Below are positions 5,577 through 20,299 of a stretch of DNA of 64,000 bases, piece after piece. Each line of letters begins with the position of its first letter. Position 1 is the stretch's first letter. The stretch lies in the NCBI GenBank assembly GCA_963666315.2, contig CAXXHG010000015.1, positions 32,001 through 96,000 of the forward strand, given 5' to 3'. The stretch comes from Candidatus Binatia bacterium. GTDB lineage: Bacteria > Desulfobacterota > Binatia > Bin18. Below the pieces are notes generated by a model. It saw only the letters and a program-made list of their open reading frames with translations, was not told the origin of the DNA and searched no databases. The translations under genes and the position numbers were made by a program.

Positions 5577-5591
5577 AGAAAAGAAAGGGTA

Positions 5592-5945
5592 TGGAGGCGG
5601 CGGGAATCGAACCCGCGTCCGAGAGTAGTCTACTCAAGGCATCTACAATGCGTAGCTCGTACTTTAATCTTATCCTCAGGTCTCCTACGAGCAGGATGCC
5701 GTCAGACCAGCCAAAGAGATGTTTCGGACCTGCACCCCTCGGCGCAATGCAGCCCCTAGCCCGATTTGTGTCGCCTTAGTCGGCCCTACGGGCACGGACC
5801 GGTAAGACGCTAGCGGCGATTAGGCAGCTAGAGCGTATTCAAAATCATCTGCAGTTAAATTTGCAGTCTGTCCGTTTTACGGGCGGGACAGGACCCCGGC
5901 ATGCAGCCTTGGCTTTCTAGCCCACGTCGAAGCCAGATCGCCCCC
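5592..5945 (-). ncRNA. ssrA: tmRNA, tag peptide (A)ADDFEYALAA
   Basis: 5' end GGGGGCGATCTGGCTTCGAC; 3' end GCGGGTTCGATTCCCGCCGCCTCCA; tag ORF 5852-5820; adjacent to smpB; CCA not encoded. Confidence 0.97.
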
Positions 5946-17763: not shown

Positions 17764-18804
17764 TTAGGACGCGCCCTTGGCTGAAGGGACTGGAGCGGCA
17801 TACTGCCAGGTCAAAGAGAAGAGCGTATCCCCTCCAGGCAGCGGCGTTAATTCAGACTCGGGAAGAATATCGGCAGGGACATCGGGATGCCGACTGCGCG
17901 CCTCACCAATGGCCTGCGGAATGAGATCCTGCGGCTGTGCCGTAGTGTCCCCATTGGGCGTATCAGTCAGCTCGGAAGCGCGCAGTTTTACCGTCACCGT
18001 CACCCTCATGGAACCCGAACTGCGGGATGGAGGTGGGGGCGTTGAACTCGCGCCTTCTTCTCCCTGACCTGGGTGTTCTGCGTGTTCTGCTTGCCCACTA
18101 GGAGCATCAACACTACCCGGCTCCATCTCCAGTGAGCTAACGTCCGACTCCGGCAGCGGCACTTCGTTCGTCCGAGAGACAGGCTCGTCCGGATAAGCAG
18201 GTTCGTTCAGAGCTTCTTCGGGCGTTTCCCGAACCGGATCTGCGGGCATCGTCTCTCGGTCCTGACTCTCTTGCCTGCCCCGGCCCCGGCCCCGCAGACC
18301 ACGCCGTCGCCCACCTCGCTCGTCCCGGGCGGCAGGCTCATCCTGAGCTACTTCAGGCGTTTCCCGAACCGGATCGGCCGGAACTTCCTCTCGGTCCTGA
18401 CTCTCCTGCTGGCCCCGGCCCCGTGTACCGCGCCGTCTCCCTCCTCGCCCGTCCTCATCAGATTGTCGCGCCTCCTCGCGTTTGGGCTGGAGCCGCTGTT
18501 TGCCCGGCACTATCCCGAGCACAAGAAACTGGCAGGCGTCAGTCGATATATAGTCCAGGGCATCTCCAGCAAAATCCATCGCCTTATCTTCAGTGTAGGC
18601 GTCTACGTCAAAGTCTGCGAACACCATATAGTGGAGCCGCCCACCCGATGAGGAAGGAGTACTCGACCCCTCGCTCAGCTCATGTTCATAGTAGCGGACA
18701 CGTTGGTGAGACAGCGAATCGAGAAGAGTAGCGACCGCCTCTTGGATCTCGTCTGGAGAAGAACCGCTGGCTTCAAATACTGCTAAGACGTGAAAATCAG
18801 GCAT
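17764..18804 (-). CDS. Hypothetical protein with RGG-rich/acidic internal tandem repeat
   Basis: 346-aa ORF with a 135-nt-period duplication (about 18196-18455) encoding RGGRRRG.RGRG..QESQDRE..PADPVRETPE. Confidence 0.8.
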   Translation of the reverse strand: MPDFHVLAVFEASGSSPDEIQEAVATLLDSLSHQRVRYYEHELSEGSSTPSSSGGRLHYMVFADFDVDAYTEDKAMDFAGDALDYISTDACQFLVLGIVPGKQRLQPKREEARQSDEDGRGGRRRGTRGRGQQESQDREEVPADPVRETPEVAQDEPAARDERGGRRRGLRGRGRGRQESQDRETMPADPVRETPEEALNEPAYPDEPVSRTNEVPLPESDVSSLEMEPGSVDAPSGQAEHAEHPGQGEEGASSTPPPPSRSSGSMRVTVTVKLRASELTDTPNGDTTAQPQDLIPQAIGEARSRHPDVPADILPESELTPLPGGDTLFSLTWQYAAPVPSAKGAS

Positions 18805-18898
18805 ATGTCACAGGTTTTTATATAGTGCGGTGGGCTTATCCGCAAGAGCCGAGAGGCGTTGGAAGAATCCGAGTGACGTAAAAAGAGAGAAATTCACC

Positions 18899-18927
18899 TG
18901 GACCTTTTCGTCATTTAGGCATAATAT
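18899..18927 (+). promoter_or_regulatory. Putative sigma70 promoter for the intergenic RNA
   Basis: TGGACC-N17-TAATAT with an A-rich upstream tract. Confidence 0.5.
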
Positions 18928-18933
18928 AAAAAA

Positions 18934-19252
18934 AGTTTTCGGTCGGGTGGACACAACCCTGAGCGTTTCGGCTCCTGTAATGTCACAGGACCGAGCGGAC
19001 CGAGCCTCGGGCCGCTAACGGCGATCGGTTCCTGGCTGAGCGGATTCTGGACCCGCGGTGGGTACGCCGAGAAAGGAGGTGATCTAGTGGCGATATCAAA
19101 TATGGTGATTTGTGAGGTGGTGGCCTCCTAGGCCGACGTACCCAAAATACAGGGTGGTCGCTTGGGAGGACCAGGCACCGCCGAAACCCCGACAGCCCGT
19201 GCTCATCATACACGGGACGTCCGCATAAGGACGTAGCACTGTCGGGGTTTTC
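18934..19252 (+). ncRNA. Unassigned structured RNA containing a 14-codon ORF (19087-19131)
   Basis: Multiple nested helices seen by eye, AAAGGAGGTGATC at 19072-19084, and a terminal stem with T-tail. Confidence 0.6.
19183..19252. terminator. Branched, probably bidirectional terminator
   Basis: GAAACCCCGACAG pairs with CTGTCGGGGTTTT and encloses two small hairpins; lies just past the holA stop. Confidence 0.7.
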
Positions 19253-19270
19253 ATTGTGTGCCGGTCCCTG

Positions 19271-20299
19271 CTAGGCGGCTCTTCGACATACCTCCAGGAT
19301 AAAGGCGTCGAACAATACCTGCGGCGGCGTACGACTGGATTTCAGGGCAATATCGAGGCGGGACGCTTGGTGCAGGACATGCCGGAGATCCGTATACGAA
19401 AACGAGCGGCTTTGTCCGACCAAGGCGCGCACCCGCGCGCCGCGGAGTCCAACTGCCCGTTCGATTTCACTGTCCGGAGCCCTGCGGTCACGTAGGTCTT
19501 TGATCTGCCATAGCCGTCGAAAATGACTCACCAAAGCGTGCAGGACGGGCAACGCGCGTTTTTCATCGCTCAATACCTGGCGTAACAAACCGAACGCGCG
19601 TTTCCCATTGCGCTGGCCAAGAGCATCGGCCAGATCAAACGCGGAGTGCTGGTGGAGATCCCCCGCGCATAGCCTGACCGCCTCGACACCTATTTCAGTT
19701 TCTGGGAAAACAAATGCTACAAGTTTGTCTATCTCGGTTGATAAGGCAAGCAGATCCGTACCGACGTGGTCGGCCAAATCGGAGGCTGCGGCTTCATTCA
19801 GACGTCCCCCCCGCTCGCGCGCAAAGCGCTGTGCCCAGCCAGGGATCTGGTTCACAAATGGAGGCCGGAATTCAGCAACAAAGCCATGTTTTGCACACAC
19901 AGAAAAGAATTTAAGGCTGAGATTTGCCCGTCCCTGCATACACACCACCAACGGCTGACTAGCATCTCGCAGCTCGGCTTCGGTAGCAAGCCGCTCGCGA
20001 TCGGCGGCTGTAAGCTGCCCCGCCCTTTTCAGGACGACGAGACTGTGTTTCGCAAAAAGCGACGGACTGCCCCACGCCTCCAGAAGGTGATCAAGCGTAT
20101 CGTCTCCAGCATAGAAGGTGTGGACAGCAACATCCTGTCCCGCTTGCCCCAAAGTTTTGTAAACACAGCCAACGGCCCGTTCGATGAAATAGGATGCATC
20201 TCCGTAAAAGAGGTACAGTGAGTACAGAGGGGCTTGCGCCAGGTGGGTAAAGATCTCATCAGGTCGGCGAAACGTCGTCCCTGTTCGCTTGGTCGCCAT
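19271..20299 (-). CDS. holA: DNA polymerase III subunit delta
   Basis: LYLFYGD, SPSLFA, EIDKL, FDLADAL and LDIALKS motifs; 342 aa. Confidence 0.92.
   Translation of the reverse strand: MATKRTGTTFRRPDEIFTHLAQAPLYSLYLFYGDASYFIERAVGCVYKTLGQAGQDVAVHTFYAGDDTLDHLLEAWGSPSLFAKHSLVVLKRAGQLTAADRERLATEAELRDASQPLVVCMQGRANLSLKFFSVCAKHGFVAEFRPPFVNQIPGWAQRFARERGGRLNEAAASDLADHVGTDLLALSTEIDKLVAFVFPETEIGVEAVRLCAGDLHQHSAFDLADALGQRNGKRAFGLLRQVLSDEKRALPVLHALVSHFRRLWQIKDLRDRRAPDSEIERAVGLRGARVRALVGQSRSFSYTDLRHVLHQASRLDIALKSSRTPPQVLFDAFILEVCRRAA

What the first reader, a model, noticed from the sequence alone, without database searches (positions are those of the whole stretch)
18899..19252. Unassigned ~320-nt structured RNA that sequesters a perfect Shine-Dalgarno and a 14-codon ORF
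Seen: a promoter-like TGGACC-N17-TAATAT. A 5' multibranch domain follows (TCGGTC/GACCGA enclosing GGGT/ACCC and TCCTGT/ACAGGA). A central rod pairs CCTGG/CCAGG, AGCG/CGCT and TGGGTACG 19059-66 with CGTACCCA 19137-44. A 3' junction (13-bp stem 19183-95/19239-51) encloses CCCGTG/CACGGG and ACGTCC/GGACGT. Inside the rod, AAAGGAGGTGATC (19072-84) complements the canonical 16S 3' end and sits only 2 nt before GTG of a 14-codon ORF, (M)AISNMVICEVVAS*. The end of that ORF (GCCTCCT) can pair back onto the SD. By eye it does not match SRP, RNase P, tmRNA or E. coli-type 6S signatures. Inference: a standalone regulatory RNA or cryptic micro-ORF mRNA, for example a 30S-binding decoy, a gated peptide message or a divergent 6S-like RNA.
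Basis: partly seen in the sequence, partly recalled or inferred. Interest (0 to 1): 0.75.

Follow-up and report, generated by a model that had tools for sequence, protein, structure and literature searches.

The report
Ribosome-matching small RNA with micro-ORF
This is a real, conserved gene for a roughly 320-base RNA that matches the whole free end of the ribosome's 16S RNA and carries a conserved 14-codon reading frame; it is a distant relative of a known but uncharacterised RNA family.

Summary
Window 18899-19257 (+) is a stand-alone RNA gene lying between two minus-strand genes. It occurs once per genome in 23 of 24 other genomes of the genus. Of 86 predicted base pairs, 25 show compensatory changes, against 6.9±1.9 in shuffles.

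It is not quite unassigned. It aligns end to end with Rfam Ms_IGR-5 (RF02471) at 35.2 bits, below the 45-bit cut-off.

Bases 19070-19084 are a perfect 15-nt complement of this genome's own 16S 3' tail.

The micro-ORF is real. In 140 of 140 related sequences the frame has an in-frame start and no internal stop. The stop lies exactly five codons after GAG in 139 of 140, and TAG, TGA and TAA interchange there. Conservation tracks nucleotides rather than amino acids.

The last ORF codons form a covarying long-range helix with an anti-SD-like CACC motif beside the terminator, so translation must open that helix.

The 5' domain and 3' junction are supported.

Function is unknown. My best reading is a ribosome-capturing, translation-gated RNA: a new variant of a known kind.

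The parts
18899..18927 (+). Promoter-like -35 TGGACC, 17-nt spacer, -10 TAATAT, preceded by an A-rich stretch
   Evidence: Read. The position and the CTRGACC ... GTAnnnT motifs are conserved across the genus in the alignment. The consensus scanner did not flag it. The start of transcription at about 18934-18936 is inferred, not mapped.
18939..19036 (+). 5' multibranch domain. It is present in this class and in four MAGs of other labelled phyla, and absent from the Actinobacterial and Acidobacterial forms.
   Evidence: Helices 18939-44/18998-19003, 18945-48/18956-59, 18973-78/18985-90, 18964-68/18993-97 and 19004-16/19024-36 show compensatory changes. In Actinobacteria and Acidobacteria the promoter sits directly upstream of the SD leader.
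19023..19033 (+). GAUCGGUUCCU, a segment that resembles the 16S tail and pairs with the SD in the window's minimum-energy fold
   Evidence: MFE. In the consensus structure it instead pairs locally (helix 6). It is therefore an alternative partner and is not proven.
19047..19051 (+). CUGGA, pairing with UCUAG 19083-19087 (the end of the SD extension plus the first base of the start codon)
   Evidence: Helix 7: 98.6% of cells paired, changes on one side only.
19070..19084 (+). Extended Shine-Dalgarno AGAAAGGAGGTGATC, a perfect 15-nt complement of the single-stranded 3' tail of this genome's 16S rRNA
   Evidence: 16S 3' ends were read, with the genes confirmed. The 14-mer GAAAGGAGGTGATC occurs in the genome only here and antisense to the two 16S genes. 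Across 139 related sequences, positions not fixed by my search pattern stay pairable with the tail and stop being so at the helix-45 boundary.
19087..19131 (+). Micro-ORF: GTG start, 14 sense codons, TAG stop
   Evidence: the frame is conserved in 140 of 140 sequences and the stop position in 139 of 140. Start and stop codons interchange. Length ranges from 11 to 20 codons. The other two frames qualify in 16 of 140 and 0 of 140.
19114..19122 (+). Second SD-like motif GAGGUGGUG inside the ORF. GGUGGUG 19116-19122 is the 5' strand of the long-range helix.
   Evidence: It pairs with CACCGCC 19176-19182 (helix 10: 99.1% paired, 1 compensatory pair). The same helix in 40 Actinobacterial Ms_IGR-5 sequences has 5 of 10 pairs compensatory.
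19124..19168 (+). Stop-codon region CCUCCUAGGC paired with GCUUGGGAGG, enclosing the hairpin 19135-43/19152-59
   Evidence: Helices 11 and 12: 98.1% and 92.6% paired, with 2 and 3 compensatory pairs.
19176..19182 (+). Anti-SD-like CACCGCC, the 3' strand of the long-range helix, lying just 5' of the terminator
   Evidence: The homologous CAG-N-CACC motif in Actinobacteria and Acidobacteria was read.
19183..19252 (+). Terminator domain: outer stem 19183-95/19239-51, inner hairpins 19196-19201/19211-16 and 19217-22/19229-34, then a U run
   Evidence: Helices 13-16. The U tract is conserved on the + side only, as read in the alignment.
19064..19257 (+). Stretch that aligns to the whole Rfam Ms_IGR-5 model (positions 1-184)
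   Evidence: 35.2 bits, gathering score 45.

Best explanation
Window 18899-19257 (+) is a gene for a stand-alone RNA of about 320 nt, with its own promoter and an intrinsic terminator. It is a distant, 5'-extended relative of the Ms_IGR-5 RNAs of Actinobacteria.

Its conserved core is a ribosome-capture and translation module:
1. A 15-nt sequence pairs with the entire single-stranded 3' tail of 16S rRNA.
2. A start codon lies 7 nt after GGAGG.
3. A 14-codon ORF follows. What is constrained is its length in frame, its exact stop position and its nucleotide sequence, not its amino acids.
4. The last codons of the ORF (GAGGUGGUG, itself SD-like) form a long-range helix with an anti-SD-like CACCGCC beside the terminator. 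The stop region pairs with a further GGGAGG.

A ribosome that binds and reads the ORF must melt these helices. The RNA therefore most likely acts as a translation-gated switch, or ribosome-engaging RNA, whose shape reports or buffers ribosome activity. The peptide is probably a by-product.

Shown: gene-like conservation, covarying structure, ORF conservation, complementarity to the genome's own 16S, and RNA-library contigs covering the stretch.

Inferred: that it is translated in this organism, that translation remodels the RNA, and what the output is.
For: Conservation:
- One copy per genome in 23 of 24 other genomes of the genus and in 9 of 16 genomes of other families of the order or class.
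- Synteny with holA holds only within the closest relatives.
- No conserved neighbour across 112 loci; the largest neighbour cluster covers 11 of 112.

Structure:
- 96.2% of cells paired; 25 of 86 pairs compensatory, with 0 of 500 shuffles reaching that count.
- Many G-U pairs, and a U tract on the + side only, fix the strand.

Family link:
- RF02471 aligns over its full length at 35.2 bits, E 2.2e-6.
- Loci found with my motif score 175.8 and 85.2 bits as true Ms_IGR-5.

ORF:
- 140 of 140 sequences have an in-frame start and no internal stop.
- The stop lies at a fixed position in 139 of 140 (TAG 120, TGA 11, TAA 9).
- Starts are ATG 52, TTG 48 and GTG 40.
- The other two frames qualify in 16 and 0 of 140.

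RNA-level constraint: the codon before GAG is CGT, AGT, TGT or GGT (68, 34, 21 and 17), that is R, S, C or G.

16S pairing:
- The 15-nt match is to the genome's own 16S.
- Unforced flanking positions are G in 138 of 139 opposite C, and purine in 139 of 139 opposite each of two U.
- The same 16S tail is found in a Mycobacterium, an Acidobacteriaceae and a Rhodobacteraceae genome.

Long-range ORF/anti-SD helix: supported in the class and in Actinobacteria, where 5 of 10 pairs are compensatory.

Expression hints:
- Short contigs (221-417 nt, 95-99% alike) in 4 marine metatranscriptome runs from 4 studies cover 18952-19346, with nothing laid on 18600-18951.
- A passage in PMC4974804 reports ribosome footprints on MS_IGR-5 homologues in two mycobacteria.
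- Passages in PMC8079986 and PMC8780764 report the RNA as an expressed sRNA unit in two Streptomyces species.
Against: - No strand-specific or end-mapped RNA data exist for this organism. Contigs show neither strand nor level, and RNA libraries can contain DNA.
- Translation here is inferred.
- The Rfam score is below the family cut-off.
- In the window's own class the long-range helix is nearly invariant: 4 of 8 pairs never vary and only 1 is compensatory. Its strongest support therefore comes from Actinobacteria.
- The SD core is predicted to be mostly paired in the free RNA (P(unpaired) 0.20), which could limit ribosome access.
- A sequence profile of the class core scores the Acidobacterial forms no better than the best chance holder of the motif: medians of 8-10 bits against 8.8 bits. 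For those lineages, common descent rests on architecture alone.
- A functional peptide is not excluded.
- No output of the proposed switch (target, partner or phenotype) is known for any member.
Confidence: 0.55

Rival explanations
1. It is simply the mRNA of a functional 14-residue micro-protein. The extreme SD only ensures high expression and the RNA structure only confers stability.
For: The frame, start and stop are conserved in 140 of 140 and 139 of 140 sequences. The C-terminus is always E-V-x-x-x. Many versions contain a single Cys. A passage in PMC4974804 reports ribosome footprints on relatives.
Against: - The N-terminal part varies freely in sequence and in length (11-20 codons).
- The residue before E is R, S, C or G, while the codon's last two bases are fixed.
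- GAG GTG G was fixed by my search pattern, but it is also invariant in the BLAST-found class members and upper-case in the Rfam consensus. That points to nucleotide-level constraint.
- The last five codons are one strand of a covarying helix.
- There are no partner or processing genes nearby.
Confidence: 0.12
2. It is a trans-acting base-pairing sRNA whose conserved loops or anti-SD-like segments bind target mRNAs. Ribosome binding and the ORF are secondary, for example protecting the RNA from decay.
For: It is stand-alone, has no conserved neighbour, ends in a terminator, and has conserved unpaired segments and CACC or CCUCC motifs that could pair with SD regions. The Ms_IGR-5 and CC2171 entries are filed as sRNAs in Rfam.
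Against: No target is known for any member: the searches found none. The anti-SD-like segments have covarying partners within the RNA itself. This reading does not explain the exact stop position or the complementarity reaching the very end of the 16S tail.
Confidence: 0.15
3. It is a cis element of a neighbouring gene. Candidates are the 3' UTR or terminator of holA, the 5' leader of the minus-strand gene 17764-18804, a leader-peptide attenuator, or an antisense regulator of holA through read-through.
For: It fills the whole 466-nt gap between two minus-strand genes. The minus strand also folds better than shuffles (z -3.27). One RNA-library contig runs 94 nt past the terminator into the end of holA. 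The holA synteny is kept in the genus.
Against: The SD, ORF, Rfam match and U tract are all on the + strand. Numerous G-U pairs would be A-C mismatches on the other strand. Relatives in other lineages have unrelated neighbours. No co-oriented gene follows the terminator.
Confidence: 0.03

Closest known systems
Rfam RF02471, Ms_IGR-5 (Actinobacteria sRNA, function unknown)
   Same: Full-length alignment to the model. Both have a leader ACAC/ACGC-N-GRAAGGAGGUGRUC, a start codon a few bases later, a 12-14 codon ORF ending E-V-x-x-x-stop, a GUGAGGUGG block, a long-range helix from the ORF's end to a CACC motif beside the terminator, and a stand-alone gene with no conserved neighbours.
   Different: - It scores 35.2 bits against the 45-bit cut-off.
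- It carries an extra 5' domain of about 135 nt (18939-19069), whereas Actinobacterial RNAs begin about 12 nt before the SD.
- The ORF tail is EVVAS with CCUCC, rather than EVAAR.
- The middle domain differs.
- The host is apparently not an Actinobacterium. No Actinobacterial-type copy appeared in an even draw of 401 genomes of its phylum, against 6 of 121 in Actinomycetota.
- The micro-ORF and the ORF/anti-SD helix are not part of the Rfam structure line.
Rfam RF01867, CC2171 (Caulobacter and alphaproteobacterial sRNA, function unknown)
   Same: It has the same GAAAGGAGGUGRUCC block after a CAACAA leader, a start codon 7 nt after GGAGG, a short ORF, and a long-range helix between an ORF segment and the stretch just before the terminator. 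It is also stand-alone. A bioRxiv preprint (10.1101/2022.01.24.477521, passages read) reports it expressed in Methylorubrum.
   Different: - The window scores only 12.9 bits against a 75-bit cut-off.
- In the 10 loci whose ORF I read, the ORF is 17-30 codons, begins M-S and lacks GAGGUGG and the fixed E-V-x-x-x-stop.
- The class-core profile matches only the SD block, at 10.2 bits or less.
- Whether the relationship is homology or convergence on the 16S tail cannot be told.
6S RNA and mycobacterial Ms1 (RNAs that hold RNA polymerase; recalled, apart from the abstract of PMC4191392 seen in the listing)
   Same: The likeness is functional only. It is a structured, stand-alone, probably abundant RNA that presents an ideal docking site for a core machine and carries a short template that the machine can read.
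   Different: There is no Rfam match to any 6S model at E up to 10. The docking site is for the ribosome, not for RNA polymerase. No binding data exist.
Leader-peptide attenuators and dual-function sRNAs such as SgrS/SgrT or RNAIII/hld (recalled)
   Same: A short translated ORF sits inside a structured RNA, so the position of the ribosome decides which helices can form.
   Different: No co-oriented downstream gene exists and there is no run of regulatory codons. Unlike the dual-function sRNAs, the peptide here is not conserved as a protein.

Membership tests
Rfam RF02471 Ms_IGR-5 | Covariance-model score at or above the curated gathering score (45 bits) | tested here: not met
   35.2 bits, E 2.2e-6, model positions 1-184 of 184. 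Positive controls: L083 at 175.8 bits and L034 at 85.2 bits.
Rfam RF02471 Ms_IGR-5 | Conserved blocks ACAC-N-GRAAGGAGGUGRUC and GUGAGGUGG in the same order and spacing | tested here: met
   See the alignment. The window has ACGCCGAGAAAGGAGGUGAUC and UGUGAGGUGG.
Rfam RF02471 Ms_IGR-5 | Micro-ORF from just after the SD to a stop five codons after GAG. This is a feature of the members that I found here; it is not part of the Rfam entry. | tested here: met
   Window 19087-19131. Present in 140 of 140 and 139 of 140 sequences.
Rfam RF02471 Ms_IGR-5 | Long-range helix between GGUGG... at the ORF's end and ...CACC next to the terminator | tested here: met
   Window 19116-22/19176-82. Actinobacteria: 10 pairs, 5 of them compensatory.
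Rfam RF02471 Ms_IGR-5 | Transcript begins about 12 nt before the SD, with the promoter directly upstream and a length of about 185-210 nt | tested here: not met
   The window has a conserved promoter at 18899-18927 and a structured 5' domain of about 135 nt. In Actinobacteria and Acidobacteria the promoter abuts the leader.
Rfam RF02471 Ms_IGR-5 | Actinobacterial host, as in the family description | tested here: inconclusive
   The taxon is not named. In an even draw of the window's phylum the motif occurs in 7 of 401 genomes, 5 of them in its own class, and none is of the Actinobacterial type. In Actinomycetota it occurs in 6 of 121.
Rfam RF01867 CC2171 | Covariance-model score at or above 75 bits | tested here: not met
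   12.9 bits, E 0.94-2.5.
Rfam RF01867 CC2171 | ORF beginning M-S of 17-30 codons, and the helix CAUUGUC/GACAAUG | tested here: not met
   Read in the 10 alphaproteobacterial loci that showed such an ORF. The window has neither.
6S RNA, SRP RNA, RNase P RNA, tmRNA | Match to the Rfam models | tested here: not met
   No match in 18750-19350 at E up to 10. The only gathering-level hit in the window is a tmRNA at 5589-5945 on the minus strand.
Leader-peptide transcription attenuator | A regulated gene downstream in the same orientation | tested here: not met
   The next gene is a convergent holA. There is no conserved neighbour in 112 loci.

The most novel reading that the evidence does not exclude
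This RNA and its relatives (Ms_IGR-5, possibly CC2171) may be the ribosome's counterpart of 6S RNA. On this reading they are abundant RNAs that dock 30S or 70S ribosomes by pairing with the entire free 3' tail of 16S rRNA. That pairing would also leave no single-stranded 3' end for exonucleases. The ribosome would free itself by making a short template-directed product, the micro-peptide, which is analogous to the pRNA of 6S. Melting of the SD-like/anti-SD-like helix would act as the release or reset switch.
Probability: 0.15. Interest if true: 0.9.

Novelty: new variant of a known kind. Interest (0 to 1): 0.68.

Why it matters
Ms_IGR-5 and CC2171 have sat in Rfam for years as 'sRNAs' with no known function. 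None of the papers found in my searches describes a reading frame or a link to 16S rRNA.

This window shows that the same design occurs outside Actinobacteria. Its conserved features are:
- complementarity to the whole 16S tail, ending exactly at the helix-45 boundary;
- a frame-conserved but sequence-free micro-ORF with a fixed stop;
- a covarying helix that a translating ribosome must open.

That turns a vague 'sRNA' into a testable idea: an RNA built to engage ribosomes. It can be studied in tractable laboratory species such as Mycolicibacterium smegmatis, Streptomyces coelicolor and Caulobacter.

If the RNA holds or senses ribosomes, it would be a new layer of global translation control. 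If not, it is still a clean case of a mis-filed micro-ORF RNA.

Tried and rejected
- **Known RNA families.** The Rfam gathering scan of the whole window found only a tmRNA elsewhere. The permissive scans gave nothing else below E 0.9.
- **Consensus scanner.** It found no promoter and did not flag this terminator, so it is uninformative here.
- **Neighbour analysis.** The first script timed out. The smaller rerun found no conserved neighbour.
- **Naming the mycobacterial locus.** Longest-ORF calling of its flanking genes in high-GC DNA gave nonsense, so I dropped it.
- **Naive helix-partner search.** I looked for the partner of GGUGGNNN anywhere in the 250 nt downstream. The background was too high: shuffles reach 8 of 8 pairs in 47% of trials. 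I rejected this as a test and kept only single examples at the homologous position (L059, L141, L118, L030).
- **Upstream 346-aa protein.** No Pfam family and no usable Atlas hit.
- **Viruses.** The motif has 2 matches in IMG/VR. Both sit in what looks like coding sequence, without leader, start or stop layout, so I read them as chance.
- **Near-match in the genome.** A one-mismatch copy at G000:C43 has no start codon at the right distance and looks like chance.
- **Sequence profile of the class core.** It gave clear hits in four MAGs labelled Thermodesulfobacteriota, Myxococcota, Planctomycetota and Rokuibacteriota (32.7-98.6 bits) and modest hits in Actinobacteria (median 15.6). For the Acidobacterial forms it did no better than the best chance holder of the motif.
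- **RNA runs.** Parts of the stretch without contig cover (18600-18951) prove nothing.
- **Literature.**
  - The searches found no functional study and no mention of the ORF.
  - The original Ms_IGR paper (PMC3527728) is not held.
  - The ribosome-footprint claim of PMC4974804 rests on a supplementary dataset that I could not see.
  - Micro-proteome papers on mycobacteria (listing only) may list this ORF in supplements that are closed.
- **Taxon.** The taxon of the window was not established.
Full report
**What is there.** The finding lies in the 466-nt gap between two minus-strand ORFs: 17764-18804 (346 aa, no Pfam family) and 19271-20299 (DNA polymerase III delta, holA; PF21694, E 6e-21). 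The + strand folds at -150.5 kcal/mol, against -125.2±5.9 for 100 shuffles (z -4.3). The minus strand gives z -3.3. The Rfam gathering scan of the window finds only a tmRNA at 5589-5945 on the minus strand.

**Conservation.** A BLAST-type search of 41 related genomes finds one match each in 33, G000 included. That is 23 of 24 other genomes of the genus and 9 of 16 genomes of other families of the order or class. In the distant ones only the middle of the query matches, the SD plus micro-ORF. The alignment shows conserved promoter-like motifs (CTRGACC, 17 nt, GTAnnnT), the SD block, the ORF and a terminator with a U tract on the + side only. The holA synteny holds only in the closest relatives: tblastn hits in 21 loci other than the window's own, none in L026-L146.

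**Structure.** RNAalifold on 29 class members predicts 86 pairs.
- 96.2% of cells pair.
- 25 pairs carry changes on both sides, against 6.9±1.9 in 500 shuffles (0 of 500 reach 25) and 8-13 when the partners are slid.
- The sequences are related, so these numbers overstate independence.

- Its 5' multibranch helices, the ACGTCC/GGACGT hairpin and the terminator stem are supported.
- CCTGG/CCAGG and AGCG/CGCT never covary, and they overlap better-supported local pairings.
- The 8-bp TGGGTACG/CGTACCCA helix is peculiar to this genome. Two of its pairs are broken in 23 and 24 of 29 sequences.
- The poor result for CCCGTG/CACGGG came from my off-by-one indexing.
- The many G-U pairs would be A-C mismatches on the other strand, which fixes the + strand.

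Several segments have two possible partners.
- The 5' CGGUC can pair with GACCG locally, or with GAUY inside the ORF.
- CCUCC at the stop can pair with the SD or with a downstream GGGAGG.
- In the window's minimum-energy fold, the SD pairs with GAUCGGUUCCU (19023-33), a look-alike of the 16S tail.

The RNA is thus a patchwork of SD-like and anti-SD-like segments.

**Relation to known families.** A permissive Rfam scan aligns 19064-19257 to the whole Ms_IGR-5 model (RF02471) at 35.2 bits, E 2.2e-6, below the 45-bit cut-off. I then scanned one genome per GTDB species for the exact motif AGGAGGTGRTC, a gap of 15-45 nt, then GTGAGGTGG.
- I judged four of them to be chance (L044, L075, L114, L131).
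- By record title, the remaining 112 are mostly Actinomycetota and Acidobacteriota.
- Single MAGs are labelled Thermodesulfobacteriota, Myxococcota, Planctomycetota, Rokuibacteriota and Heliobacteriaceae.
- A Mycobacterium locus and a Streptomyces locus among them score 175.8 and 85.2 bits as true Ms_IGR-5.
- The three Acidobacterial, the Rokuibacteriota, the Planctomycetota and the Myxococcota loci tested give nothing at E 0.01 or better.

A sequence profile of the class core gives:
- 32.7-98.6 bits for the four MAGs of other labelled phyla, which also carry the 5' domain;
- a median of 15.6 bits for Actinobacteria;
- only 8-10 bits for Acidobacteria, no better than the best chance holder (8.8 bits).

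Common descent with the Acidobacterial forms therefore rests on architecture alone. Exact-motif counts are lower bounds. The motif occurs in 7 of 401 genomes in an even draw of the window's own phylum, 5 of them in its class. In an even draw of Actinomycetota it occurs in 6 of 121, one of which is flagged unpublished.

**The micro-ORF.** I analysed 140 sequences: 111 pattern loci plus 29 class members. I dropped L023 (SD variant), L058 (at a locus edge) and the four chance loci.
- The frame defined by GAG GTG has a start codon 7-16 nt after AGGAGG and no stop before GAG in 140 of 140 sequences.
- The other two frames manage 16 and 0 of 140.
- The stop lies exactly five codons after GAG in 139 of 140, and it is TAG 120, TGA 11 or TAA 9 times.
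- Starts are ATG 52, TTG 48 and GTG 40.
- Lengths are 11-20 codons.

Neither starts nor stops were part of my search pattern. Interchange of the three stop codons and the three start codons at fixed places, together with indels in threes, argues that the frame is read.

The peptide itself is not conserved. The N-terminal part varies freely. The residue before E is R, S, C or G, because only the first base of that codon varies. The constraint is on the act of translation and on the RNA sequence.

**Complementarity to 16S.** The assembly holds two 16S genes, both ending ...GGCUGGAUCACCUCCUUUCU. Window 19070-19084 is the perfect 15-nt complement of the whole stretch after helix 45. The helix-45 boundary is from recall of the E. 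coli structure. The 14-mer occurs nowhere else in the genome except antisense to those rRNA genes.

Across 139 sequences I looked at the positions my pattern did not fix:
- G in 138 opposite the tail's C;
- purine in 139 opposite each of two U;
- 88-92% pairable at three further positions;
- about 45% pairable and falling at the next three positions, which lie inside helix 45.

The same tail is present in a Mycobacterium, an Acidobacteriaceae and a Rhodobacteraceae genome. Whether the mature 16S keeps the last two bases was not determined. The invariant G suggests it keeps at least the C.

**The translation-sensitive helix.** In the class, GGUGGUG (19116-22, inside the last five codons) pairs with CACCGCC (19176-82), just before the terminator. 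That helix is 99.1% paired but nearly invariant. RNAalifold on 40 Actinobacterial sequences independently finds the same helix, GGUGGCUGYC with GRCAGYCACC. It has 5 of 10 pairs compensatory. The whole structure beats all 500 shuffles and the slid controls, with 12 compensatory pairs against 2-6. A ribosome at the stop codon would cover the 5' strand, so reading the ORF must free the anti-SD-like strand.

**Expression.**
- Four marine metatranscriptome runs from four studies contain short contigs, 95-99% alike, over 18952-19346, 19016-19223, 18986-19223 and 18952-19187.
- Two of them start at 18952, one directly after adaptor sequence.
- Nothing was laid on 18600-18951.
- Contigs give neither strand nor level, so this is a hint only.
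- For relatives, passages in three papers report Ms_IGR-5 as an expressed sRNA unit in two Streptomyces species (PMC8079986, PMC8780764) and as ribosome-protected in two mycobacteria (PMC4974804). The data behind the last claim are in a supplement that I could not see.

**A second look-alike family.** The consensus of Rfam CC2171 begins cAAcaAucGAAAGGAGGUGAUCCAGUG. In 61 alphaproteobacterial genomes the model hits 10 at E 0.001 or better, 2 of them above the cut-off. Ten of the 11 matched loci show CAACAA-NN-GAAAGGAGGTGRTCC, a start 7 nt after GGAGG, and an ORF of 17-30 codons beginning M-S. The window scores only 12.9 bits. I cannot tell whether the likeness is homology or convergence on the 16S tail. 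CC2171 has no known function (bioRxiv 10.1101/2022.01.24.477521, passages read).

**Mechanism.**
- Shown: a conserved stand-alone gene, a covarying fold, a frame-conserved ORF with a fixed stop, full complementarity to the 16S tail, and an ORF-embedded strand of a long-range helix.
- Inferred: ribosomes dock on the extended SD and read the ORF, this opens the SD-like/anti-SD-like helices, and the RNA thereby senses, buffers or holds ribosomes.
- The output is unknown.
- The free-RNA ensemble predicts the SD core to be mostly paired (0.20 unpaired in the window; medians 0.22 in the class and 0.42 in Actinobacteria). Access may therefore be gated.

**Rivals.** The alternatives are a functional micro-protein, an ordinary base-pairing sRNA, and a cis element of holA or of the upstream gene. 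Each is weighed in its own section. Chance is excluded by the conservation.

**Verdict.** This is a real feature and a new, 5'-extended variant of the Ms_IGR-5 kind in another phylum. Its features (the micro-ORF, the full 16S-tail complement and the translation-sensitive helix) do not appear in the papers my searches found.

Noticed in passing
window 5589-5945 (-): A full-length tmRNA gene (RF00023, 167.9 bits), about 13 kb from the finding.
   Followed up: no
G000:C26 (L156) and G000:C29 (L157): The assembly holds two 16S rRNA genes whose sequences differ in the last 100 nt before the shared tail. One is followed by two tRNAs. The other is followed by two tRNAs and a 23S gene. This may reflect divergent operons or a second organism in the bin.
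   Followed up: partly
L164-L173 (alphaproteobacterial genomes G432-G486): The Rfam CC2171 sRNA family carries the same GAAAGGAGGTGRTCC block, a start codon 7 nt after GGAGG, and an unannotated ORF of 17-30 codons beginning M-S. That ORF is often rich in His and Cys.
   Followed up: partly
window 18952: Contigs from two metatranscriptome runs (X1, X6) both begin exactly here, inside the loop of the first 5' hairpin. In X1 the contig begins directly after adaptor sequence. This could mark a processing site or the true 5' end, 17 nt downstream of the start predicted from the promoter.
   Followed up: no
window 19202-19210: The loop of the first inner hairpin of the terminator domain reads CUCAUCAUA here and UUCAUCACC in most of the genus. 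It is complementary to the GGUGAU that occurs twice in the RNA, in the SD extension and in the ORF, so it is a possible loop-strand contact.
   Followed up: no
window 19252-19346: One RNA-library contig (X1) continues 94 nt beyond the terminator into the 3' end of the convergent holA gene. This could be read-through antisense or the overlapping holA message; contigs cannot tell which.
   Followed up: no
window 17764-18804 (-): The divergent upstream gene (346 aa) has no Pfam family and no Atlas hit. Only about the first 118 residues are conserved across most of the genus.
   Followed up: partly
L033-L120 (Actinobacterial loci), about 40-60 nt upstream of the SD block: The Actinobacterial copies have an A-rich stretch (GAAAATCCG) just before a TTGCCG/TTGTCG -35 element. 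It resembles an UP element and hints at strong expression.
   Followed up: no
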